A stretch of 60,437 nucleotides of DNA from a virus (IMGVR_UViG_3300033148_004729:1-60437); one strand, 5' to 3'; numbered from the stretch's first letter, positions 1 to 43,076 are shown. Notes: generated by a model not told the origin, from the letters alone. Made by a program: numbers and translations.

Positions 1-3000
1 TTCAGCACGAGGGCTGTAAGTGCCCCGGCCGGCGTGGCCCTTCGGAATCGCTTCGGCAAGGAGCCCGTCAAGTACGTTCCCCTGTCGCAGTTTTTCACTT
101 CCAGGCAGCGCAAGGACGGCGAGGACGATGATGCCATTTATGGCAGGCGTGCTCGACCACGTAAAAAGAAGAAGGGCGCCAAGGCGTCTGAGGGCCCCCA
201 GGGGCCCAAGCAGCCGGACACGGACGATGAGACCCGCAGGACGAAGAAGAGTCCCACAGAGGCCGTAGAGGCTCAGGATGGGGTATTCCTGACCGAGCCG
301 CTCGTTGAGGGGAAGATTTGCTGGATGAAGGGATGTTCCAGCCCGGCCACGAAGCAGATTGTGTGGGCTGATGGTCGCGCCATCTTTCCCGTCTGCGATG
401 CCTGCGTCGAGGCCGGCAAGAAGTACCTCAAGAAGAAGAACGGAAAGTGGGCCGAGATCGTTGCTGTCCAGTCCATCAAGGAGGCTGGAAGTGGGCAACC
501 TGTTGCCCACCTCGACGAGTCGGCGGCGCACGTCAAGTCCATCGCCTTGATGCGGTGGCTCTCCAGAGCGGCCAAGGAGCTTCGAGCCGACCAGCATATC
601 TACGTCGTCGGCGGTGCGGTCAGAAACTTCGTCATCGACAAGCCCATCAAGGACGTCGATGTGGTGCTCGACGCCGTGGCCCTCGGGCGCGGGCGCGACT
701 CGGCGTGGTTCGCCAAGCAGCTTCAGAAGCGCATCGGCGCCAGGTCGAAACTGGCAACCAACCAGTACGGGGTGGCCATCCTGACCGTCTCGGGCGACTG
801 GGAGGTCGATGGTCACAACCTCAAGGGCGAGGTCATCGAGATCGCCAACGCCAGGAGCGAGAGCTACGGCGGCGAGGTCGGCAAGGGGTACAAGCCCTCG
901 GACGTGCAGGTGGCGCCCATCGAGAAGGACGTCAAGCGGCGGGAGTTCACGTTCAACTGCATGGGCGGTGACACCCTCATCCCGACCGAGATGGGTATCC
1001 TCCGGATTGACAAGATCGCCGACCGGACCGATGGGGATCGACAATCCATCGAACTTCGGGTCGCCGGGCAGGACGGTCCGGCTGTTGCCGCCGGGTGGCA
1101 GTATAGTGGTCATACCGACACGCTTCGGGTCAAGACTGAGTGGGGGCACACATTCACCTGTACCTATCATCACCCGGTCTTGGTGCTGCGGGGTCACGAG
1201 CACGAATGGGTTCAGGCTGATCAACTCGAAGATAGTGACTTGCTCTGTGTCCCAGTGCGTCAGATGGTGCGCCAGGCCCCGTTGACACTTGACTTGTCCG
1301 ATCCGGTGCCGCCGAAACATGGTCGCCTCAAGGAGATCCGGAAGCCAGAGGTGATGACCCCGGAGCTTGCCTACGTCCTCGGATGTCTTGTGGCCGAAGG
1401 GTCCAACACGGCGAAGAGGGTGTCGTTCAGTAATTCGGACAACGCTTTCATCGCTCGCTACGCCGAGTGCTTTCAGGCTACGTTTGGGTTTGCGCCATCG
1501 CGAAATCAAGTGGTTGCAGAGGGCGACGTCCGGGTGCTGGATGGTGTCGAGTTTCGAGCGACTCGTGACGGGTTCGACATTTACGCGGACAGTCGGACCC
1601 TGGTGGGTTGGTTCGATGAGCTTGGGTTGTACTGTGGTGGCGCATGGGGCGGGAAGTCAGCCTCTCATCACAAGATAGTGCCGTGGTCGATTCTGGAGGC
1701 TGACGAGAAGAGTCAGGCTGCGTTCCTGGCCGCTTACCTGGAGGGTGACGGGTCGATCAGGCCGGACTCGGGGCGCATCACTTACTGTTCCGTTTCGCCG
1801 CATATCCGTCAGCAATTACAGGTACTCCTGGGTGCCCATGGGATACTGAGCAAGGTCAAGGGTCGATTCGTCTACGTCAATGCCGTGGATTCGGCGAAGC
1901 TGTGGTCGAAGATCGAAGCGTGGATGGTTACCAAGCGGTTCGACTACGACGGCGTGAGCTTCAAGTCGCGCAATCGTTACGGCGTCCAAAATGAGCATCT
2001 GGCGGGGTGGTTGAAGGGGCGGCGCGTCAGCGTGGGAAACAACACCGGGGCATCCATCTTTCGAACCGACGATGGTGACGAGGTGTCGCTGGCCGGGATG
2101 ACCGAAGCTCTTCGGCGTCCAAAGCGAATCCTTCACGATTCCGTGGCTCGTGGGGACTACGACACGTTCATGGTGGGGCTCAAGATGGTCAGCCCGACCG
2201 AGTACGCCAAAGTTCAACGGCTCCTTGATCTGGAATACCAGTATGTCGAGGTGGCCTCCGTGGAGAACGCAGGACAGCAGGACGTGTACGACTTGTCCAT
2301 GCACGAGGGAGTCGAGCCAGCTTTTGTAGCCAACGGGGTAATCGTCCACAATACGCTCATGTGGCGGCTGGCCGACCTGGCCAAGGGCCCCGACAAGGCC
2401 GAGATCATCGATCTGGCCGGCTGCGGCCTGAAAGACCTCAAGGCCAGGACCATGAGGTGTCCGTCGGACCCGGACAAGACCTTCTCGGACGACCCCACAA
2501 GGATGCTTCGGGCTATCAAGTTCATGAACAAGTACGGGTTCAAGATCAGCCCGGACACCGAGGCGTCCATCCGGCGCAACGCCAGCAAGCTTCGTAACGC
2601 CCCCTCGGCGGCCATCGCGAAGCTTCTCGTCGACGTCATCTTGAAGGAGCCGCGGACAGCGAAGAAGGCTCTCGGCGAGATGAAGCGGCTCGGGCTCCTC
2701 GACGTGGTGGCGCAGATGGCCCAGGACGACGCATCGTTTCGGGCGACCTTGAGCGGCTGGGCCAACGACCAGCGGGTGGCGCTCCTCTTCCACCTGCTCG
2801 ACCTGGGGCTCCCTCTCAAGACGAAGCTCGGGGCCTTCGAGCCAGCCGAGCAGAAGCGTATCCGGGTCGTGACGGCCACGATGCCGGATGCCGAGGCCTC
2901 AGAATACCTGGCTGCGCTCAAACAGCCTGGTCGGGCGTGGAAGGACAAGCTCTTCTTCGCGGCCATGGCGGCCGACTTGGGCGCAACGGGGAAGGGCATC

Positions 3001-3702
3001 GGTAAATTGGCGCAGCGCGTCAATGGCATTGCCAGGGACGCCATGCTGTCGGACCCCAAGCTCGTGGGCTCGCCAGAGAAGCTCAAGCGCATCATCCGGG
3101 ACGCCATCAAGGACTCGGGAGCCCGTTTTGAGGCCAAGACCCGCAAGTGCGAGTTCTGCCAGAGCCCGGCGACCCACGCCGTGCGAGCCCAGCCGACCGG
3201 CCTTGACGTGTGCGACGAGCACCTGAAGAGGGCTAAGGCACGACTTCGTAAGATGGGGTTCAGGGACTCGCGGATCTCGTCGCATAGGATGGCCACGGTC
3301 TACGGCGAGAGTCGCGAGAGGAGCAACTGCGACTTTGGCAGTAGCGCCTACTACGAATTCGTCAAGAAGAACCAATGCTTTAGGACCAGGGAGTTCGAGG
3401 AGTTCGTCACCGACCACAACAAGGCCGGTCGAGACAGCGGTGAGCTTCAGGACATCGCCATGCACGAGGTCGAACGCCTGGCGCGGGAGTTTGCGAAGAA
3501 GGTCGAGGGCATGACGACCACGGCGAACATCGCCACAACGCCGGTTCCGGTCGGCGCCGGGGATGGCCGCAAGTTCCTCGACTTCGGTCCTGGTCATCCA
3601 TTCCATGGGCGCGATTTCGGTGAGCCGAAGAAGAAGCGGAAGCGGAAGAAGAAGCGCCAGGGCTTGTCGCAACGGCTCTCTTACCTGCTTACCATCCCGT
3701 AG
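1..3702 (+). CDS. cca: CCA-adding tRNA nucleotidyltransferase (class II, PolyA_pol family) with an intein and N-/C-terminal Zn-finger-like extensions; frame open to the window edge, so the true start may lie upstream
   Basis: YVVGGAVRNF...PIKDVD (motif A), IEIANARSESY, DVKRREFTFN (RRDFTxN-like), GLKDL, FSDDPTRMLRAIKF; no stop codon in frame between positions 1 and 34. Confidence 0.9.
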   Translation, partial: FSTRAVSAPAGVALRNRFGKEPVKYVPLSQFFTSRQRKDGEDDDAIYGRRARPRKKKKGAKASEGPQGPKQPDTDDETRRTKKSPTEAVEAQDGVFLTEPLVEGKICWMKGCSSPATKQIVWADGRAIFPVCDACVEAGKKYLKKKNGKWAEIVAVQSIKEAGSGQPVAHLDESAAHVKSIALMRWLSRAAKELRADQHIYVVGGAVRNFVIDKPIKDVDVVLDAVALGRGRDSAWFAKQLQKRIGARSKLATNQYGVAILTVSGDWEVDGHNLKGEVIEIANARSESYGGEVGKGYKPSDVQVAPIEKDVKRREFTFNCMGGDTLIPTEMGILRIDKIADRTDGDRQSIELRVAGQDGPAVAAGWQYSGHTDTLRVKTEWGHTFTCTYHHPVLVLRGHEHEWVQADQLEDSDLLCVPVRQMVRQAPLTLDLSDPVPPKHGRLKEIRKPEVMTPELAYVLGCLVAEGSNTAKRVSFSNSDNAFIARYAECFQATFGFAPSRNQVVAEGDVRVLDGVEFRATRDGFDIYADSRTLVGWFDELGLYCGGAWGGKSASHHKIVPWSILEADEKSQAAFLAAYLEGDGSIRPDSGRITYCSVSPHIRQQLQVLLGAHGILSKVKGRFVYVNAVDSAKLWSKIEAWMVTKRFDYDGVSFKSRNRYGVQNEHLAGWLKGRRVSVGNNTGASIFRTDDGDEVSLAGMTEALRRPKRILHDSVARGDYDTFMVGLKMVSPTEYAKVQRLLDLEYQYVEVASVENAGQQDVYDLSMHEGVEPAFVANGVIVHNTLMWRLADLAKGPDKAEIIDLAGCGLKDLKARTMRCPSDPDKTFSDDPTRMLRAIKFMNKYGFKISPDTEASIRRNASKLRNAPSAAIAKLLVDVILKEPRTAKKALGEMKRLGLLDVVAQMAQDDASFRATLSGWANDQRVALLFHLLDLGLPLKTKLGAFEPAEQKRIRVVTATMPDAEASEYLAALKQPGRAWKDKLFFAAMAADLGATGKGIGKLAQRVNGIARDAMLSDPKLVGSPEKLKRIIRDAIKDSGARFEAKTRKCEFCQSPATHAVRAQPTGLDVCDEHLKRAKARLRKMGFRDSRISSHRMATVYGESRERSNCDFGSSAYYEFVKKNQCFRTREFEEFVTDHNKAGRDSGELQDIAMHEVERLAREFAKKVEGMTTTANIATTPVPVGAGDGRKFLDFGPGHPFHGRDFGEPKKKRKRKKKRQGLSQRLSYLLTIP
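958..2352 (+). mobile_element. Intein (465 aa) with LAGLIDADG homing endonuclease
   Basis: Starts CMGGDTLI, block B FTCTYHHPVL, LAYVLGCLVAEG and FLAAYLEGDG motifs, VYDLS, ends VANGVIVHN followed by T(+1); removal restores RREFTFN-TLM. Confidence 0.95.
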
Positions 3703-3803
3703 CAACTGCCAGATGTGAGTGGTAGTATTGCCTCCAACCTCGTGGTGAGGAGTGGTGCTCTTGTATTGTCAGGGGCATCGTAGAAGGAGGAGGAGAAGGA
3801 GAG

Positions 3804-4795
3804 ATGGACCAAATTACCCCTGAAGCTACCACCAGCACGGATGCTCCCACGCAAGCCCTTGGAACGTCGACGACAAGGCCAGGTCGTCACAGCAAGGCGG
3901 AATCCTCGATACGTCGGATGAGAGCTACAAGCCGGTCACCGAGGCTTCACCAGAGCGTGGAATCTATGGAATTGTTGGCGGGTACGTCGACGACAACGGC
4001 GTTCTGCACAACGAGGTCGAGCTTGAGGCCATGGGTGGTGACGAGGAAGACCTCCTCGGCAACGAGTCTGTTCCGTTCATGAAGCGGATGGATTCAATCA
4101 TGGCCTCCTGCACGAAGAGGATTGGCACCATCACGGACGCGGCCGGGATCCACCGGGCCATCCGGGAGATGCCATCGGGTTCGAAGACTCATCTCTTCAT
4201 ATGTCTGCGGATCACTTCTCATCACAAGACTCAGAAGGACGTGTACGAGATGGAAGTCCGCTGCCCGGACAAGATCCAGTGCGGCAAGATCGGGTACTAC
4301 AAGGTCAGCCTGCTCGACCTCGACCTCTTTCAGCCTGAGGATCCGACGGAGTTGGTCCACGAAATCGAGCTTCCGTACGCCGAGTGCAAGGCGAAGTGGA
4401 AGACGCTCACGGGCAAGGAGGACCACATCCTCACGCTCCTGACAGAAGCGAGCCAGCCCGAGCAGTTGAGTTTCGCCATCCTTGTGCGTCTGGTTGAGCT
4501 TGATGGTGAGCACGTCGAGCTTGCGATGACTGAATGCCTGTCCGGCGACGGCAAAAAGGTGAAGCTCAACAAAAAAGCCACCAACTTGCTGAGGAAGGTC
4601 AAGGCAATGAAGGCCGGAGACCGCGACTTGTTCCGTGGCGACTTCATGGACAAAGAGGCTGGAATCGAGACGGATATTGACGTGACGTGCTCCCATTGCA
4701 ACATGGACTTCATGGCACGGCTCAACGTGGCTCAGGAGGCGTTCTTTTTCCCTCAGGTAACCTCGCGGCGCTCGAAGAGGAGACGCTCTACTTGA
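3804..4795 (+). CDS. Tail assembly chaperone / T4 gp26-like baseplate hub assembly protein; apparent frameshift near 3860
   Basis: Strong SD and ATG at 3804; the frame of ORF 4031 is open from 3824 and reads GGYVDDNGVLHNEVELEAMGGDEEDLL; CPD..C and CSHC pairs; ends in FFFP; lies upstream of the tape measure gene. Confidence 0.75.
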
Positions 4796-4917
4796 TGGAT
4801 CGTCTTCACCTTGGCTATCGGGACGTCATGGAGATGCCCATCGGTCGGCGAAAGAGGTTCTGCGAGGAAATCGAGCACATAGATCGCGTGAGGTCGAAGA
4901 AGAAGCCTAAGAAGTAG
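4747..4917 (+). CDS. -1 frameshift extension of the tail chaperone (G/GT-like; T4 gp51-like segment)
   Basis: Slippery heptamer T TTC CCT at 4747-4753; -1 frame reads LEEETLYLMDRLHLGYRDVMEMPIGRRKRF. Confidence 0.7.
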   Translation, partial: FPSGNLAALEEETLYLMDRLHLGYRDVMEMPIGRRKRFCEEIEHIDRVRSKKKPKK

Positions 4918-4954
4918 GTACGGCGGCATAGTGGGTGGCGGGGAGGTCGGGTAG

Positions 4955-5809
4955 ATGCCTGGCGGCGGGATGGGAAGGATGGGGGAGGTCGAGACGGGGG
5001 CCACGTTCGGGTCGTGGACCGTCCTTGACGTTTCCGGCGTCCAGCGCCGTGAAGCCTATTACGACTGCCGGTGCTCCTGCGGGACCGAAAAGCCTGTCGC
5101 TAAGTCGTCTCTCCTAAGTGGTGCGAGCACTCGATGCCGGCAGTGCTCCAACGCCAGCAACCAGAAGGCCACGGAAGCTCGTCGGCGGTCCATCAATCCG
5201 GGTGCGACCATCGGCTTGTGGACGGTCCTCGAAGAGGCCGAGGCACGGAGCGGCAACCTCTACATGCGGTGCCGGTGTGAGTGCGGGGCCGAGCACGAGG
5301 TGATGGCCTCGACACTGCGACGCGGAAAGTCGAAGAGTTGCGCGGCCTGCTCTCGGAAGATGAGCCGGAAGAAGAATCGCGAGATGACCTCGAAGCACGG
5401 CGGGGTCCAGGCTGAGTACCGAGCTTGGAGCCGAATGCGAGAGCGGTGCAGGAATCCCAACGAGAGGAGCTTCGAGCGGTACGGTGGCCGGGGCATCAAG
5501 GTCTGTGAGGAGTGGCAGGGCGAGGGTGGCTTCGAGCGGTTCATGGAACACATCGGACCTCGGCCGTCGGTCAAACACTCCCTGGAGCGCATCGACAACG
5601 ATGGCAACTACGAGTCCGGCAATGTGAAGTGGGCGACGAAGAAGGAGCAGCAGAGGAACACGAGACGAAATAGGCAGGTGACCATAGACGGGGTGACGAA
5701 GTGCGTGGCTGAATGGGCTGGAGAGTCCCAGGTTCCAGCCTCCATCATCTACAAAAGGTTGTATCGAGGATGGCCTCCTGAGAGGGCCGTATTCGAAGGG
5801 AGGATGTAG
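4955..5809 (+). CDS. HNH homing endonuclease
   Basis: Two G.WTV...CRC.CG repeats, YGGRGIKVCEEW, SLERIDNDGNYESGNVKWAT..EQQRN, C-terminal HTH-like segment. Confidence 0.9.
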   Translation: MPGGGMGRMGEVETGATFGSWTVLDVSGVQRREAYYDCRCSCGTEKPVAKSSLLSGASTRCRQCSNASNQKATEARRRSINPGATIGLWTVLEEAEARSGNLYMRCRCECGAEHEVMASTLRRGKSKSCAACSRKMSRKKNREMTSKHGGVQAEYRAWSRMRERCRNPNERSFERYGGRGIKVCEEWQGEGGFERFMEHIGPRPSVKHSLERIDNDGNYESGNVKWATKKEQQRNTRRNRQVTIDGVTKCVAEWAGESQVPASIIYKRLYRGWPPERAVFEGRM

Positions 5810-8800
5810 ATGCCAGGGGGAGGAATGGGGCGCATGATGGGCTTTGGCTTCCTCTTTGGAGCCAAAGACGATGGTGCGGTCCGTATGACCGAGGACATCT
5901 CGGGCGGCATGGGTCGCATGGTCGATGCCACTGAGCGTGTTGGTCGTGAGTCTGCTGGCATTGGTCGTCTCGGCAACTTCATCAACGCCCTCAACCTTCG
6001 GCAGTTGTCTCGTGTTGGCGATGCCATGGAGAACCTCGCCAGCAGGGCTGGAGCCTTGGCAGGCGAGGTTTCTTCGACCTCGATGGAGTCCTTTGGGGCT
6101 GAGTACGCACAAACCTTCAGGGCGGCTACTGCGGGCATGGGTGAGTACGGGGCCGAGGTCGAGTCTGTCAGGGGTGAGATCGGGAGCCTCGCGTTCAACC
6201 TCGGCATCGGAGCCGACGAGATGTTGAGCTACGCCACCACGGTGGCGCGGAGCGGCATGAGCCTCGACGACTTCGGCATTGACATGAGGTCGGTCGCCGG
6301 TTCCATCCAGGCCAACATTCTCTCCGGCGAGCAGCTTGCCGGAGTCCTGACAGGTCTTGCGCGCGGGTATGATCTCGGGGCTGAAGGGGCTACGAGGATT
6401 CTCGACACCATCACGGCAGTCGGTGAGCAATTCGGTGTTGGGGCAGACGCGGCCAGGGCCCTTCCAGAGGTCATGCAGGCCGTTGACGCTGCTGCGGCAC
6501 GCTTCCCGTCCATCGGCGAGAATGTCGATGTTGCCGTTGAGTCCATCACACGACTCGGAATCGCCCAGCAGCGACGCCTTGGGGGCACCTTCCAGGAAGG
6601 CATTTCGTCGGCCATCAACGTCTTCAACGAGCTTGCCGGTACGCGGCGGGAGATGGAGGGCCTGTTCACGGGCTTGAATGATCAGTTCCCGGAGCTTGCT
6701 TCCGAGATTGCGAGGGCCACCGGCAACGTCAGCTTGAGTTTTGACGCCATCATGCAGGACCCGGCCAGGTTCGCTGGGACCATCGCCAGCATGTTCCGGA
6801 GCATGGACCAGGGGAGTCCGGCGGCGTCCAGGCTTCGGGCCGTCCTCGAACAGATGGGGCCTGAGTTCATGTTCCTCGTGCAGGGTGGCGAGGAGTCGGC
6901 TCAAGCTCTCGAAGCTGCCATGGGTTCTGTTGAGGGGGTCGAGGGGGCTTTCAACAGTATGAGTCGGTCTGCGGGTGGGGCGACTCGTACCTTCGCCGAG
7001 TCCATGGAGCTTGTTGAGGAGAGCTTCCGACACCGGCTCGACCGGATGGCGAGGCGCCACTACCCAAACTTCGAGCGTGACGTCCTTCAGCGACAACGGC
7101 GTGCCTACCAGATGATCGGCGATACCATCGCCAGCGTGGCCGGCAGGAGCGGTCCGGTAGGGATGCTCACGAGGTCGATGATTGCATTCCGCCGCGGTGG
7201 TTTCACCGGTCTCGTCGAGGGGTTGTCCAGGGAGACCCGTGGGATGGGGCGGCGATTCGTCGAGGCCGCTGGTGAGGCGAGTCCTGCTCTCGGGGCTATT
7301 GCTCAGGGGTTTGTCGGGCTTGGGGAGAGGGCTCGGGACGCCATGCCGTTCTTGGACGGCGCGGGTGAGATGATCTTTGACATGGCCGGGCAGGCGCTTC
7401 CGACTGCAACTGCGATGGGTGCCCTTGGCCTAAATTTCGAGACCGTTGGACGGGGAGCCCGTGGCGCCGCAAGTGGTATCGGCAGGGTTGTGATGGCCCT
7501 TGGTCCGCTTGCCATCGTTGTCGCTATCGCGGCAGGTGTCTACTTGCTGGTCAGGAATTTTGACCGGGTTCGGGCGTCGCTGTTGAGCGCCGGTGAGAGC
7601 ATCAGGGACTTCGGTGCCAACTTCCTCGATTGGGCAACCAACATTGACTGGGCGACCCTCGGTCAGCGCATTGTTGCTGGTATCGTGTCGATCTTCACGG
7701 GTGCTGGGTCGAGGCTCACAGGGATGGCCGAGGATGCCACCGGGGCCGTCTTGGACCCCGTGTGGGTGCAGATGGGCAGGAACATCCGAGACGGCATCAG
7801 AGACGTCTTCCTTGGCATCATGCACGCCGTTCCAGGGTTGGCCAGAGGCATCTGGACTGGCATCCAAAATCTGTTCTCGGACCCCGAGGCGTTGCGCCAG
7901 GCCATCACGGACAACATCGCATCCATAGGCGAGTTCCTCGGGCCGGCGTTTGAGAGTGCTTTCAGCACACTCGGTGACATCGGTGGGAGGATCTGGGGGT
8001 TCCTCTTCGAGAGGTTCAACATCGGGCCCATCACTGAGGCCATCCAGCAGGGAGACTGGGGTCGAGCCATCTTCGAAGGCATCATCGGCGCGACCGGCGC
8101 TGGTTTTGTCAGGCGGATCTGGGCGCATCTCTTCGGCGAGGAGGCTGTCTCCGAGGGTCTCAGCGGCATTGCAGGGGTCTTCGGCGAGATAGGCACTGGC
8201 ATCTGGGACTCCATGACGACTTGGGTGGAGCTTGCGAGGCCCATCTGGAACGAGTTCATGGGTGCCTTCAGCGAAATCCAAGGTGTCTTCGAGGAGTTGT
8301 GGAGAGACACCATTCAACCGTTGTTTGGCGAGATTTACAACGAGATCGTGCCGTTCATCGAGGAGCTTTTCGGTATTCAGATTGCCGTTGGTGGCGTTGG
8401 TGAAGGGTTCGAGGGTGTACAGGGTGCGGTGAGGGGCTTCTTCGAGAACGTCCAGCGAGGGTGGCGGGTCATGCAGCCCTTCATTATGGAGTTCGTCCGG
8501 AGGATGTTGCCGCGAATCGTTGAAGGTGTAAGGAACTGGGCACGAGGTGTCAGGGTCGTCATCGGGGTGATGCGGAGGGTCTGGCGTGTGGTGGGACCTG
8601 TTTTGCTCAACATCGTGCGCGGGTTCCGCGTGATGATTGAAACTGCTTGGGAGTTTTGGCAGGAGACCTTGAGGCCTGTCCTTCAGCGTATTTTCCGTAC
8701 ATTCCGGCGTGTCTTTGTGCGGTATATTCTTCCGACGGTTCGTCGGGTGTTTACGACTCTCGGTAGAGTCATCAGAGTGTGGTGGCGCCGTCGGGTGAGG

Positions 8801-9784
8801 CCGATCCTTAGTGCGTTGTGGGATCGGTTCAGCAGGACGTTCAGTTTTATCGTTCGGACAGGCCGGACTGTCTTCAACTACCTCCAGCGGCACATCACCA
8901 ACCGCATTCGTCAGGCGGCGATGGTCTTCCAGGTGCTCGGGGAGAGGTGGAGGGCCACGAAGGAAGTGCTCAGGGCTGGGTTCCGTGTCATTGCTGCTGA
9001 GGTCAACAGGTGGCTGGTCGTGCCGTTTTTGCGGCTTCAGGGCACCTTGGTTGGCATGGCCGACATCATCAGGCTTGCTTTCCTGAGGGTCAAGATGGGC
9101 GTCATGGATATGATGCTCAGTATCGTACAGGGCTTTCAGACGTTTTTGCGGAACATCACTGGAGTCGGACCGACCTTGGCCAGAGCCTTGGACCCTGCTG
9201 TGACGGCGATTCAACAGCGCATCACGACAATCGGAGGCGCGACCGGAGAAGGCGGCGAGATTGGCCAATTCATGGCCAGGACTGAACGAGAAAGATTGTC
9301 GCGTCAGGGTCAAATTGACGAGGCCAACACGAGGGCTGACAGCGCCAGGGAGGCGGCGGCGGCGGCCGAGGTCACGAGGCAACAGGTCGAGCGAGAGGCT
9401 CGTGTCAGGATGGCTCACGCGGAGCGTATGGCAAGCGCAGCCCCGGAGCCACCGACGAGAGCCACGGGTGCGCCCACGCGCGCAAGAGGGGTTGCGGCAC
9501 CTGCTGCTGTGGCTGCTGCTGGCGTTCCAGAGGTCATGGCAGGCCCAAGGAGGGGGGAGGAGTCGGAGCCCGGAGTGGCAACTTCTAGGCGCAGAGAGGC
9601 CGAGGAGGAGCGAAGGACGAGGGAAACAGAGGATCTTGCTGATGCCATTGCCATCAGTGAGTTCGGCAGCCAGGCCATCGGGCAGATGCGGGATGCGGTG
9701 CAGGAGGCTATTCAGAGGTCCAGGCGAACGACGCCACCACCTCGACGGCGAGGCGGGGAAAGGGTCCTGACGACAGACCCGTAG
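5810..9784 (+). CDS. Tail tape measure protein
   Basis: 1324 aa, Ala/Gly-rich helical sequence with W/F-spaced repeats and a hydrophobic segment; lies between the chaperone and LysM genes. Confidence 0.88.
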   Translation: MPGGGMGRMMGFGFLFGAKDDGAVRMTEDISGGMGRMVDATERVGRESAGIGRLGNFINALNLRQLSRVGDAMENLASRAGALAGEVSSTSMESFGAEYAQTFRAATAGMGEYGAEVESVRGEIGSLAFNLGIGADEMLSYATTVARSGMSLDDFGIDMRSVAGSIQANILSGEQLAGVLTGLARGYDLGAEGATRILDTITAVGEQFGVGADAARALPEVMQAVDAAAARFPSIGENVDVAVESITRLGIAQQRRLGGTFQEGISSAINVFNELAGTRREMEGLFTGLNDQFPELASEIARATGNVSLSFDAIMQDPARFAGTIASMFRSMDQGSPAASRLRAVLEQMGPEFMFLVQGGEESAQALEAAMGSVEGVEGAFNSMSRSAGGATRTFAESMELVEESFRHRLDRMARRHYPNFERDVLQRQRRAYQMIGDTIASVAGRSGPVGMLTRSMIAFRRGGFTGLVEGLSRETRGMGRRFVEAAGEASPALGAIAQGFVGLGERARDAMPFLDGAGEMIFDMAGQALPTATAMGALGLNFETVGRGARGAASGIGRVVMALGPLAIVVAIAAGVYLLVRNFDRVRASLLSAGESIRDFGANFLDWATNIDWATLGQRIVAGIVSIFTGAGSRLTGMAEDATGAVLDPVWVQMGRNIRDGIRDVFLGIMHAVPGLARGIWTGIQNLFSDPEALRQAITDNIASIGEFLGPAFESAFSTLGDIGGRIWGFLFERFNIGPITEAIQQGDWGRAIFEGIIGATGAGFVRRIWAHLFGEEAVSEGLSGIAGVFGEIGTGIWDSMTTWVELARPIWNEFMGAFSEIQGVFEELWRDTIQPLFGEIYNEIVPFIEELFGIQIAVGGVGEGFEGVQGAVRGFFENVQRGWRVMQPFIMEFVRRMLPRIVEGVRNWARGVRVVIGVMRRVWRVVGPVLLNIVRGFRVMIETAWEFWQETLRPVLQRIFRTFRRVFVRYILPTVRRVFTTLGRVIRVWWRRRVRPILSALWDRFSRTFSFIVRTGRTVFNYLQRHITNRIRQAAMVFQVLGERWRATKEVLRAGFRVIAAEVNRWLVVPFLRLQGTLVGMADIIRLAFLRVKMGVMDMMLSIVQGFQTFLRNITGVGPTLARALDPAVTAIQQRITTIGGATGEGGEIGQFMARTERERLSRQGQIDEANTRADSAREAAAAAEVTRQQVEREARVRMAHAERMASAAPEPPTRATGAPTRARGVAAPAAVAAAGVPEVMAGPRRGEESEPGVATSRRREAEEERRTRETEDLADAIAISEFGSQAIGQMRDAVQEAIQRSRRTTPPPRRRGGERVLTTDP

Positions 9785-42848: not shown

Positions 42849-43076
42849 ATGGAGATAGGTGACCGCTTCGGCAAGTGGGAGGTCATCTCCTTCGATGCCA
42901 AGAGATACCGGGGCCATATCCAGGTTGTAGTCAGGTGTGAGTGCGGGGGCGTCCGTGCCATACCTCGAAGCTACCTCACCCGGAACGAGAGGCCGAGTCG
43001 TCAATGTCAGGTGTGTGCCAGAAAAGCATGCGCTGCACTCCGCTTTGGGACACGAAAACCTCCGCTTGACGCTTGA
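42849..43076 (+). CDS. Stand-alone HNH-associated N-terminal Zn module
   Basis: IGDRFGKWEVI...VRCECG...CQVC, like the repeats in the HNH at 4955. Confidence 0.6.
   Translation: MEIGDRFGKWEVISFDAKRYRGHIQVVVRCECGGVRAIPRSYLTRNERPSRQCQVCARKACAALRFGTRKPPLDA

What the first reader, a model, noticed from the sequence alone, without database searches (positions are those of the whole stretch)
4952..5845. HNH gene and tape measure gene start with the same nine residues, synonymously recoded
Seen: both begin TAG-ATG and encode MPGGGMGRM. HNH: atg cct ggc ggc ggg atg gga agg atg. Tape measure: atg cca ggg gga gga atg ggg cgc atg. All six degenerate codons differ. Inference: an intron-less homing cassette inserted into the 5' end of the essential tape measure gene, took over the resident start, and supplied a replacement N-terminus resistant to its own nuclease.
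Basis: partly seen in the sequence, partly recalled or inferred. Interest (0 to 1): 0.75.

Follow-up and report, generated by a model that had tools for sequence, protein, structure and literature searches.

The report
Homing nuclease gene duplicating tape-measure start
A selfish nuclease gene sits at the very start of a large uncultured phage's essential tail-length gene, and each of the two genes carries its own differently spelled copy of that gene's first nine codons, an arrangement previously described at the other end of genes in fungal mitochondria.

Summary
ORF 4955-5809 (a 284-aa PHROG "HNH endonuclease") and ORF 5810-9784 (a 1324-aa tape measure protein, TMP) both start TAG-ATG and encode MPGGGMGRM. 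They differ at 7 of 27 nt, all silent, and all 6 degenerate codons differ.

The peptide is the native Gly-rich N-terminus of this TMP family. Of 29 related loci, 21 have the chaperone-like gene directly followed by the TMP gene. Six, including the window, carry an HNH gene in between, and in each of these the HNH ORF or its remnant opens with a TMP-type leader while the TMP keeps its own. No intron or intein signs were found. HNH and TMP histories disagree: the nearest relative has a 97% identical TMP start but a 70% identical HNH.

My reading is an intron-less homing endonuclease gene lodged in the TMP leader. It is translated from a TMP-type start, and the TMP restarts at the HNH stop codon.

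Three points are not shown:
- Which copy is resident. The evidence conflicts.
- Where the nuclease cuts.
- Whether the recoding is an adaptation. Independent codon choice gives 6 of 6 different 16% of the time. The strong signal is zero amino-acid changes.

The closest analogue is the fungal mitochondrial mORF elements, which carry a duplicated gene end. I class this as a new variant of a known kind.

The parts
4031..4917 (+). Upstream conserved tail gene in two overlapping frames (4031-4795 and 4687-4917). It is tail-assembly-chaperone-like and is the left flank of the insertion site.
   Evidence: ORFs, translations. The only family hit is a weak PHROG match, phrog_150 'baseplate hub', E 3.4e-5. 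Its C-terminal part is found immediately upstream of the TMP gene in relatives (29 of 31 distinct loci have a hit). The chaperone label is an inference from position, the overlapping frames and the T-rich FFFP site.
4918..4954 (+). 37-nt spacer carrying GGAGG 8 nt before the HNH ATG and ending in an in-frame TAG.
   Evidence: It is similar to the 37-nt spacer of L087 (24 of 1000 shuffles as high).
4955..4981 (+). Leader copy 1: the first nine codons of the HNH ORF, encoding MPGGGMGRM.
   Evidence: The PHROG HNH homology only begins at residue 11. Residues 1-6 have pLDDT < 50 in the model.
4955..5809 (+). Free-standing HNH-family endonuclease gene (284 aa). It has two Zn-ribbon/beta-barrel repeats, a nuclease core and a C-terminal helical domain.
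   Evidence: phrog_374 'HNH endonuclease' E 1.8e-66, plus four further PHROG nuclease families. Internal 204-nt repeats (D2/D6). AF2 mean pLDDT 89.5. The best structural match is the HNH restriction enzyme PacI, Z 5.7, rmsd 2.1, 71 residues, model 150-237. There are no Pfam or NCBIfam hits.
5795..5809 (+). The last HNH codons, which hold the GGAGG for the TMP start and the TAG stop that abuts the TMP ATG. I infer translational coupling.
   Evidence: In the other HNH-bearing loci the HNH stop overlaps or lies within 8 nt of the TMP start (TAATG in L087 and L065). In HNH-less L075 and L078 the upstream gene's TAG abuts the TMP ATG in the same way.
5810..5836 (+). Leader copy 2: the first nine codons of the TMP gene. 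It encodes the same peptide, and all six degenerate codons differ from copy 1.
   Evidence: It is 24/27 nt identical to the chaperone-proximal leader of L086.
5837..5872 (+). The most conserved N-terminal block of the TMP (MGFGFLFGAKDD), immediately right of the duplicated leader. It is a candidate recognition region for the nuclease (inference only).
   Evidence: Alignment A1 of 29 TMPs has invariant G13, G17, A18 and D20, and nearly invariant G11, F14, G22 and A23.
5810..9784 (+). Tape measure protein gene (1324 aa).
   Evidence: phrog_58 'tail length tape measure protein' E 3.5e-32, plus 4 further TMP PHROGs. Baseplate genes lie downstream. The public gene call for this protein starts at codon 9 (P0005, 1316 aa).

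Best explanation
An intron-less (free-standing) HNH homing endonuclease gene is lodged in the short, Gly-rich, length-variable N-terminal leader of the tape measure gene of an uncultured large myovirus-like phage.

How it works, with shown and inferred steps marked:
1. The HNH body is fused in frame to one copy of the TMP translation start region (GGAGG, ATG and nine leader codons). It is therefore made from the late tail operon without a promoter or start of its own. The anatomy is shown; the expression is inferred.
2. The TMP keeps a second copy of the same start region. Its GGAGG lies in the last HNH codons and its ATG abuts the HNH stop codon, so TMP synthesis stays coupled to the upstream ORF, as it is in HNH-less relatives. 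The anatomy is shown; the coupling is inferred.
3. The two copies are not a fresh duplication. They are as different at silent sites as unrelated codon choices, yet have no amino-acid change. This is what one expects if each spent most of its history as a working TMP N-terminus in a different phage lineage, and the two were brought together by nuclease-driven recombination between diverged phages, as with the 'foreign' gene ends carried by fungal mitochondrial mORFs. This step is inferred.
4. In mixed infections the nuclease presumably cuts HNH-less TMP alleles near the leader/GFGFLFGAKD junction, and repair copies the gene in. The low DNA identity of the copies (longest shared run 9 nt) incidentally prevents repeat-mediated loss and would keep the restored junction from being an exact target. 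This step is inferred and untested.
For: - The peptide is native to the TMP. The listed TMP homologues and the locus read-outs show Gly-rich leaders ending in GR[LM][LM]G[FL]GF, and three homologues begin MPGGGG.
- The insert is optional. Of 29 distinct loci with both flanking genes, 21 have a chaperone-to-TMP distance of 26-165 nt, 6 hold an HNH gene there (549-993 nt), and 2 hold other ORFs. Nine duplicate loci were dropped.
- In all 6 HNH-bearing loci the HNH ORF or its remnant begins with a TMP-like leader and the TMP has its own start. The same holds for the N-termini of P0034-40, P0044 and P0079.
- These HNHs form one group in a quick tree: 12 of them plus P0088, SH-aLRT 99. In 42 loci of the wider HNH family that have a downstream ORF, I saw no shared N-terminus (judged by eye).
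- The insertion lies within or after the leader. L086 keeps a leader right after the chaperone-like gene, then 60 nt, then a second leader + HNH, then a third at the TMP. In L058 the TMP restarts at the leader's internal Met.
- There is decay consistent with a homing-gene life cycle. L065 has a stop after 12 leader codons and a truncated HNH. P0079 is an internally deleted 166-aa form.
- HNH turnover is independent of the TMP. Window versus the P0006 contig: TMP 102/105 identical, HNH parts 70%. Window versus L086: TMP 86%, HNH 71-74%.
- Selection acts on the peptide. None of 200,000 simulations with 7 random substitutions kept it unchanged.
- Silent-site divergence. 0 of 6 codons are shared, against 0.41-0.44 shared between orthologous TMPs at 83-84% identity.
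- There is no intron: no Rfam match at E<=1 in 4000-7000.
- There is no promoter-like site in 3600-6400.
- A published analogue exists. mORF endonuclease genes in fungal mitochondria carry a duplicated gene end with 63.5% nt but 91% aa identity (PMC3630166, passages read).
Against: - No cleavage activity, cleavage site or transfer event is shown. Everything about homing is inferred from distribution and anatomy.
- The 'HNH' name rests on PHROG labels and a modest fold match (Z 5.7). Pfam, NCBIfam, PDB sequence search and Foldseek gave nothing.
- HNH and TMP identities fall together over large distances (L058, L092, L065). Long vertical co-inheritance with losses therefore explains much of the pattern, and mobility may be rare.
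- The 'two lineages' origin of the copies needs an exact 9/9 peptide match between donor and recipient, which the nearest known leaders do not quite give (MPAGGMGRM, MPGGGGMGRL).
- DNA of the closest apparently HNH-less relatives (P0007-P0009) could not be obtained, so the key comparison is missing.
- The tree is the quick one. The careful search did not finish.
Confidence: 0.65

Rival explanations
1. The cassette took over the resident start (copy 1 = resident) and brought copy 2 as a replacement. Copy 2's silent recoding was selected because it makes the restored TMP 5' end resistant to the element's own nuclease.
For: - The chaperone-proximal leaders track the TMP background. The window has MPGGGMGRM, the nearest relative's HNH (P0079) has MPGGGMGRI, and L086's first leader is MPAGGMGRM, although the HNH bodies are only 70-74% identical.
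- L065's first leader uses a GTG start 3 nt after the upstream stop, as HNH-less L059, L077 and L089 do, whereas its TMP copy uses a new ATG overlapping the HNH stop.
- The mirror-image fungal mORFs carry the foreign copy next to the host gene body (PMC3630166).
- 0 of 6 shared codons is lower than the 41-44% seen between orthologues.
Against: - The window's copy 2, together with its GGATGTAG upstream, is the copy closest to the leader that directly follows the chaperone-like gene in L086 (24/27 nt versus 21/27 by my count from the codons).
- The TMP-proximal leaders of L086 and L087 resemble each other although their HNHs are the most different pair (59-60%). The TMP-side copy therefore follows the TMP, not the nuclease.
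- 6/6 differing codons has P = 0.16 under independent codon choice.
- A comparison of both leaders with the nearest HNH-less leader gave no consistent direction in 7 comparisons from the 6 HNH-bearing loci (L086 counted twice, once with its first leader).
- The cleavage site is unknown.
Confidence: 0.3
2. The HNH gene is a long-resident, vertically inherited and possibly domesticated gene of this phage group. The leader duplication is an old scar of one ancient insertion, kept because it supplies start signals, and there is no ongoing homing.
For: - The TMP-linked HNHs form one group (SH-aLRT 99, quick tree).
- HNH and TMP identities to the window decline together (L086 74/83, L087 62/82, L065 52/54, L058 50/44, L092 47/39).
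- The leader-to-HNH junction is similar across loci (leader followed by VE/EV).
Against: - 21 of 29 loci lack the gene.
- There are decayed copies (L065, P0079).
- The TMP is 97% identical to the nearest relative's but the HNH only 70%, and P0079 is a chimera whose N part is like the window's and whose C part is like L087's.
- An old scar on a nuclease N-terminus should have accumulated amino-acid changes, yet it has none against 7 silent changes.
Confidence: 0.15
3. The nine residues are a functional tag that both proteins need. For example, they might bind the tail chaperone or deliver the nuclease into the tail with the TMP, so the identity is maintained by selection on both proteins.
For: There is perfect amino-acid conservation with saturated silent sites. 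Every member of the TMP-linked HNH group has a Gly-rich leader.
Against: - In the other five HNH-bearing loci the two leaders differ in sequence and length: 8-10 residues on the HNH, and L058's TMP leader is only MSR.
- The retained piece varies from 3 to 13 residues among HNH relatives.
- Distant TMPs lack the leader (L062-L064, L093).
- The model leaves residues 1-6 disordered.
Confidence: 0.05
4. The HNH gene lies in a self-splicing intron or is an intein, as in other interrupted tape measure genes, and copy 1 is exon 1.
For: Vibrio phage ICP1's TMP gene is interrupted by an HNH gene and its transcript is spliced (PMC10055350, passages read).
Against: - There is no Rfam match at E<=1 on either strand of 4000-7000.
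- The HNH ORF ends in a stop codon.
- The TMP ORF downstream is complete, with its own GGAGG, ATG and full leader, so nothing needs splicing.
- In L086 and L087 the HNH and TMP are in different frames.
Confidence: 0.02

Closest known systems
Mobile endonuclease ORFs (mORFs) of fungal mitochondria that carry a duplicated gene end (Allomyces macrogynus atp6; Glomus atp6, atp9, cox2, nad3). Source: PMC3630166, passages read.
   Same: - A free-standing endonuclease gene is inserted inside the end of an essential gene.
- The displaced end and a second copy flank it.
- The copies have low DNA identity but high protein identity (63.5% nt / 91% aa there; 74% nt / 100% aa here).
- The endonuclease ORF can be in phase with the host gene piece.
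   Different: - Here the 5' end is involved, with the start codon and ribosome-binding site, rather than the 3' end.
- The duplicated piece is only nine codons.
- The nuclease is HNH rather than LAGLIDADG or GIY-YIG.
- The host is a phage.
- Which copy is foreign could not be determined here.
Free-standing homing endonucleases of T-even phages (Seg and Mob proteins; 'intronless homing'). Source: PMC2988022, passages read.
   Same: - An HNH-type gene sits between or within essential phage genes, with no intron.
- Its presence among relatives is sporadic.
- Spread is expected by double-strand-break repair with co-conversion of flanks.
   Different: - The T4 elements sit between genes, and that review has no occurrence of 'duplicat'.
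- Here the element is fused to a copy of the target gene's start and leader.
- Activity here is untested.
mobE insertion that splits nrdA of Aeromonas phage Aeh1 into two working pieces ('genes in pieces'). I know this paper only from the reference list of PMC2988022 and from recall.
   Same: A homing endonuclease gene sits inside a coding region, and the downstream piece has acquired its own start.
   Different: There both pieces are needed and nothing is duplicated. Here the first piece is nine codons, is fused to the nuclease, and the TMP carries a full second copy. L058 is the closest to the split form.
HNH gene inside a spliced interruption of the tape measure gene of Vibrio phage ICP1. 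Source: PMC10055350, passages read.
   Same: The same host gene class is targeted by an HNH homing gene. That paper also reports that homing genes cluster near essential genes, including TMP genes.
   Different: ICP1 restores the TMP by RNA splicing. Here no intron is detectable and the TMP is restored by its own duplicated start.

Membership tests
HNH-family nuclease | Sequence membership in a family annotated as HNH endonuclease | tested here: met
   phrog_374 E 1.8e-66 (residues 11-269), phrog_3377 2.2e-49, phrog_2081 and phrog_953. 1093 cultured-phage records hold relatives, and several of the best are annotated HNH endonuclease. The labels are annotators' names, not assays. Pfam and NCBIfam gave no hit.
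HNH-family nuclease | Beta-beta-alpha-metal fold of the catalytic core | tested here: inconclusive
   The AF2 model has pLDDT 89.5. The top VIA-align match is the HNH restriction enzyme PacI, Z 5.7, rmsd 2.1, 71 residues, model 150-237. Z is below the level at which the tool's notes allow a firm call. Foldseek found nothing at E<=0.001.
Free-standing homing endonuclease gene | Presence/absence polymorphism at one defined site among related genomes | tested here: met
   6 of 29 loci have the HNH between the chaperone-like gene and the TMP gene. 21 have nothing there and 2 have other ORFs.
Free-standing homing endonuclease gene | Not carried by an intron or intein | tested here: met
   No Rfam match at E<=1. 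The ORF ends in TAG. The TMP has its own GGAGG and ATG. The frames differ in L086 and L087.
Free-standing homing endonuclease gene | History independent of the flanking host gene (horizontal spread or turnover) | tested here: inconclusive
   The nearest relative has TMP 102/105 identical but HNH 70%, and P0079 is chimeric. Over larger distances, however, the HNH and TMP diverge together. Only 4 paired taxa could be compared.
Free-standing homing endonuclease gene | Site-specific cleavage of the gene-less allele and biased inheritance | not testable with these tools
   This needs protein and substrates. The phage group has no cultured member in the phage collection.
mORF-type element with a duplicated gene end | An endonuclease ORF flanked by two copies of the host gene's end, with high protein but low DNA identity | tested here: met
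   9/9 aa and 20/27 nt identical. The longest shared run in register is 9 nt. The 5' end is involved instead of the 3' end.
mORF-type element with a duplicated gene end | One copy is native (matches close relatives) and the other foreign | tested here: inconclusive
   Copy 2 is nearest to L086's chaperone-proximal leader (24/27). Copy 1 and its spacer are nearest to L087's. Scoring against the nearest HNH-less leaders gave no direction. DNA of the closest relatives was not obtainable.
Intron-encoded homing endonuclease in a TMP gene (ICP1 type) | Ribozyme structure, and an exon 2 that lacks its own start | tested here: not met
   No group I or II intron model matched. The downstream TMP ORF is complete with its own start and full leader.
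Intein | In-frame insertion without a stop codon, excised as protein | tested here: not met
   The stop codon TAG at 5807-5809 ends the HNH ORF.

The most novel reading that the evidence does not exclude
This HNH lineage is a specialised parasite of a gene's start. It has persisted in the tape measure genes of a group of large uncultured phages by fusing itself to the gene's ribosome-binding site, start codon and leader, and by handing the gene a respelled copy. The respelling is maintained by selection because it both blocks self-cleavage and prevents loss of the element by recombination between the repeats. This would be the first 5'-end, start-codon-capturing counterpart of the fungal mitochondrial mORFs, and a natural example of a homing element carrying a recoded, cleavage-resistant rescue copy of its essential target.
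Probability: 0.25. Interest if true: 0.7.

Novelty: new variant of a known kind. Interest (0 to 1): 0.55.

Why it matters
Homing endonuclease genes normally avoid harming their host by hiding in introns, inteins or intergenic gaps. A fourth solution is to insert into a gene and bring along a spare copy of the displaced gene end. In the papers I read, that solution is described for the 3' ends of fungal mitochondrial genes.

This locus and its five sister loci show the mirror image in phages. The element captures the start signals of an essential late gene, and the gene restarts from a second, differently spelled copy. If the spelling difference proves to protect against the nuclease, this is a natural version of the 'cleave and rescue with a recoded copy' logic used in engineered gene drives.

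There are also practical consequences:
- Automated gene calling missed the leader. The public call for this TMP starts at codon 9.
- Gene ends carried by such elements can mislead phage phylogenies.
- The site marks a recombination hotspot in the tail module of a phage group with no cultured member.

Tried and rejected
- Close DNA relatives. No match for window 3800-7000 in cultured phages, and no cultured-phage match for the TMP protein. No exact-pattern TMP relatives in viral contigs. None in genome contigs.
- An L086 remnant of TMP codons 10-40 upstream of its HNH. By eye it looked colinear. Local alignment against three TMP 5' regions was no better than shuffles (381, 344 and 704 of 1000 as high; 570-638 of 2000). 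Rejected.
- The idea that the HNH leader derives from the TMP's internal GGMGRM (residues 32-37) rather than from the N-terminus. The DNA is similar (D10; 149 of 2000 shuffles as high), but only the N-terminal copy shares GTAGATGCC and the upstream GGAGG. Rejected.
- Direction of the duplication from leader similarity to the nearest HNH-less locus. There was no consistent direction in 7 comparisons. Inconclusive.
- A general habit of this HNH family of copying its neighbour's N-terminus. I saw none in the 42 of 52 wider-family loci that had a downstream ORF (judged by eye, not scored).
- Structure search. Foldseek against the PDB gave nothing at E<=0.001. PDB sequence search gave only a chance hit at E 0.16.
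- Stop-codon read-through fusion of the HNH and TMP, which are in the same frame in the window. This is not conserved, since the frames differ in L086 and L087.
- Literature. Searches (listings), with passages of four papers read, found no description of a phage homing gene with a duplicated 5' gene end. Subscription journals and supplements were not searchable, so this is not proof of absence.
Full report
**What is there.** The window is a 60,437-bp viral record estimated at about one third of a genome, with about 60% G+C. The region is part of a tail and baseplate module. A conserved chaperone-like gene in two overlapping frames lies at 4031-4917. It is followed by a 284-aa ORF (4955-5809), a 1324-aa ORF (5810-9784), and then baseplate genes.

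- The 284-aa protein matches PHROG families labelled HNH endonuclease (phrog_374, E 1.8e-66, residues 11-269).
- The 1324-aa protein matches tape measure families (phrog_58, E 3.5e-32).
- Pfam and NCBIfam give nothing for either.
- An AlphaFold model of the HNH protein is confident (pLDDT 89.5; residues 1-6 disordered). Its best structural match is the HNH restriction enzyme PacI, at a modest Z of 5.7 over residues 150-237. Foldseek found nothing.

Both ORFs start TAG-ATG and encode MPGGGMGRM.

- The two 27-nt stretches differ at 7 positions, all silent, and all six degenerate codons differ.
- Both are preceded by GGAGG at a working distance.
- The pair is a 31-nt direct repeat at 77% identity, 855 nt apart.
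- The second TAG is the HNH stop codon.
- The first TAG is not a gene's stop. The upstream gene ends 37 nt earlier.

**How unusual it is.** The perfect peptide match with 7 silent changes cannot be neutral. None of 200,000 simulations with 7 random substitutions preserved the peptide. The striking '6 of 6 codons differ', in contrast, is not significant by itself, because two independent draws from the window's codon usage give it with P = 0.16. What it does show is that the copies share no more silent-site identity than unrelated sequences. Orthologous TMP segments of relatives at 83-84% protein identity still share 41-44% of such codons.

**What the peptide is.** 29 TMP homologues were found. 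Their N-termini, and those read from fetched loci, show a Gly-rich, length-variable leader ending in GR[LM][LM]. This is followed by the most conserved block of the protein, G[FL]GF[LVI]FGAKD. The nine residues are therefore the TMP's own N-terminus. The public gene call for this TMP starts at codon 9 and missed the leader (P0005).

**Relatives with and without the HNH.** Scans with a TMP alignment returned 11 viral and 28 metagenome loci. After dropping 9 duplicates there are 31 distinct loci including the window, and 29 have hits to both flanking genes.

- In 21 loci the chaperone-like gene is followed by the TMP gene within 26-165 nt. In L075 and L078 its TAG directly abuts the TMP ATG.
- In 6 loci (the window, L058, L065, L086, L087, L092) an HNH gene of the same family lies in between.
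- In 2 distant low-GC loci about 2.5 kb of other ORFs lies there.
- In every HNH-bearing locus the HNH ORF or its remnant opens with a TMP-like leader and the TMP has its own start.
- The closest HNH proteins known only as proteins (P0034-P0040, P0044, P0079) also open with such leaders, 3 to 13 residues long.
- In a quick tree these HNHs, plus P0088, form one group with SH-aLRT 99. The careful search did not finish.
- In 42 loci of the wider HNH family that have a downstream ORF, I saw no N-terminus shared with the neighbour. This was judged by eye.

**The insert lies in the leader, not merely upstream of the gene.**

- L086 has three leaders. One lies directly after the chaperone-like gene. 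A second lies 60 nt further on at the HNH. A third, aberrant one lies at the TMP.
- In L058 the HNH carries the Gly-rich part and the TMP restarts at the leader's internal Met.
- L065 has a leader, a stop after 12 codons, and a truncated HNH.
- P0079, on the same-length contig as the TMP most like the window's, is an internally deleted 166-aa form.

Intact, truncated and absent states at one site are what a homing-gene life cycle predicts.

**Evidence for movement.** The window's TMP start is 102/105 identical to that of the P0006 contig, yet the HNH parts are only 70% identical. P0079 looks chimeric, with its N part nearest the window's HNH and its C part nearest L087's. Against the L086 relative the TMP is 86% and the HNH 71-74% identical. 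Over larger distances the HNH and TMP diverge together. Much of the history is therefore vertical, with turnover among close relatives.

**Not an intron or intein.** No Rfam family matches at E<=1 in 4000-7000. The HNH ORF ends in a stop, and the TMP ORF is complete with its own start. The frames differ in L086 and L087. This separates the case from the spliced, HNH-interrupted TMP gene of phage ICP1 (PMC10055350, passages).

**Which copy is resident?** This is unresolved.

- The chaperone-proximal leaders follow the TMP background even where the HNH bodies differ.
- L065's first leader uses the GTG-start, short-spacer layout of HNH-less relatives.

Against it:

- The window's copy 2 and its GGATGTAG upstream are closest to L086's chaperone-proximal leader (24/27 nt; 1 of 2000 shuffles as high).
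- The window's copy 1 and its 37-nt spacer resemble those of L087 (24 of 1000 shuffles as high).
- The TMP-side leaders of L086 and L087 resemble each other although their HNHs are the most different pair.

Each leader seems to be inherited with its physical neighbour, and HNH bodies are exchanged between them. After several such rounds the question may have no single answer. A score-based test gave no direction.

**Most likely mechanism.** The HNH gene is a free-standing homing gene that uses a copy of the TMP's start region for its own translation. It leaves the TMP a second copy, coupled to its stop codon. The zero-replacement, saturated-silent pattern fits two alleles of one leader that evolved in different phage lineages and were joined by nuclease-driven recombination. 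Selection for respelling, to avoid self-cleavage or repeat-mediated loss, remains possible but is not required by the data. Cleavage, its site and biased inheritance are all untested.

**Comparison with what is known.** The nearest described system is the mobile endonuclease ORFs of fungal mitochondria. These sit in the 3' end of atp6, atp9, cox2 or nad3 with a duplicated C-terminal piece of low DNA and high protein identity, one copy being foreign (PMC3630166, passages). The present case is the 5'-end mirror image in a phage, with start-signal capture. T4 Seg and Mob genes share the intron-less lifestyle but not the duplication. The T4 review has no occurrence of the word stem 'duplicat' (PMC2988022). 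Five literature searches turned up no phage example. Supplements and subscription journals were not visible.

**Verdict.** I class it as a new variant of a known kind, of moderate interest.

Noticed in passing
window 4031-4917 (overlap 4687-4795; T-rich site near 4738-4750): The gene upstream of the HNH is in two overlapping frames. It has a conserved FFFP / T-run at the switch point, also seen in L062, L083, L086 and L087. This looks like the programmed -1 frameshift of tail assembly chaperones, although the only family hit is PHROG 'baseplate hub' (E 3.4e-5).
   Followed up: partly
window 5902-5920 (TMP residues 32-37): The TMP contains a second GGMGRM whose DNA is 84% identical to leader copy 2 (D10). 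Relatives have EGMDRV at this position. It is either chance in G-rich sequence or a small conversion from a leader copy.
   Followed up: partly
protein P0079 (same-length contig as TMP P0006; no DNA held): The nearest relative's HNH is an internally deleted 166-aa form and looks chimeric. Its N part is 51/66 identical to the window's HNH, and its C part is 63/77 identical to L087's.
   Followed up: partly
L062 3363-5983 and L064 (same layout): In two distant low-GC relatives the same chaperone-to-TMP junction holds about 2.5 kb of small ORFs plus a 255-aa ORF (5201-5968) instead of an HNH gene. The junction may be a general insertion hotspot.
   Followed up: partly
L083 744-1499: A second member of the same HNH family sits about 3 kb upstream of the TMP gene, between two similar tail-tube-like ORFs (206-796 and 1393-2172). 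It has no TMP-type leader.
   Followed up: partly
window 4955-9784: The HNH and TMP are in the same reading frame, separated only by TAG, so read-through of that codon would give a fusion protein. The frames differ in L086 and L087, so this is probably incidental.
   Followed up: partly
window 42855-43028: There is a weak second match (E 5.9e-5, 35% identity) to the Zn-ribbon repeat part of the HNH protein elsewhere in the window.
   Followed up: no
window 34-3702: A 1222-aa ORF has a tRNA-nucleotidyltransferase-like segment (phrog_2244, E 1.2e-24, residues 782-863) directly upstream of the tail module.
   Followed up: no
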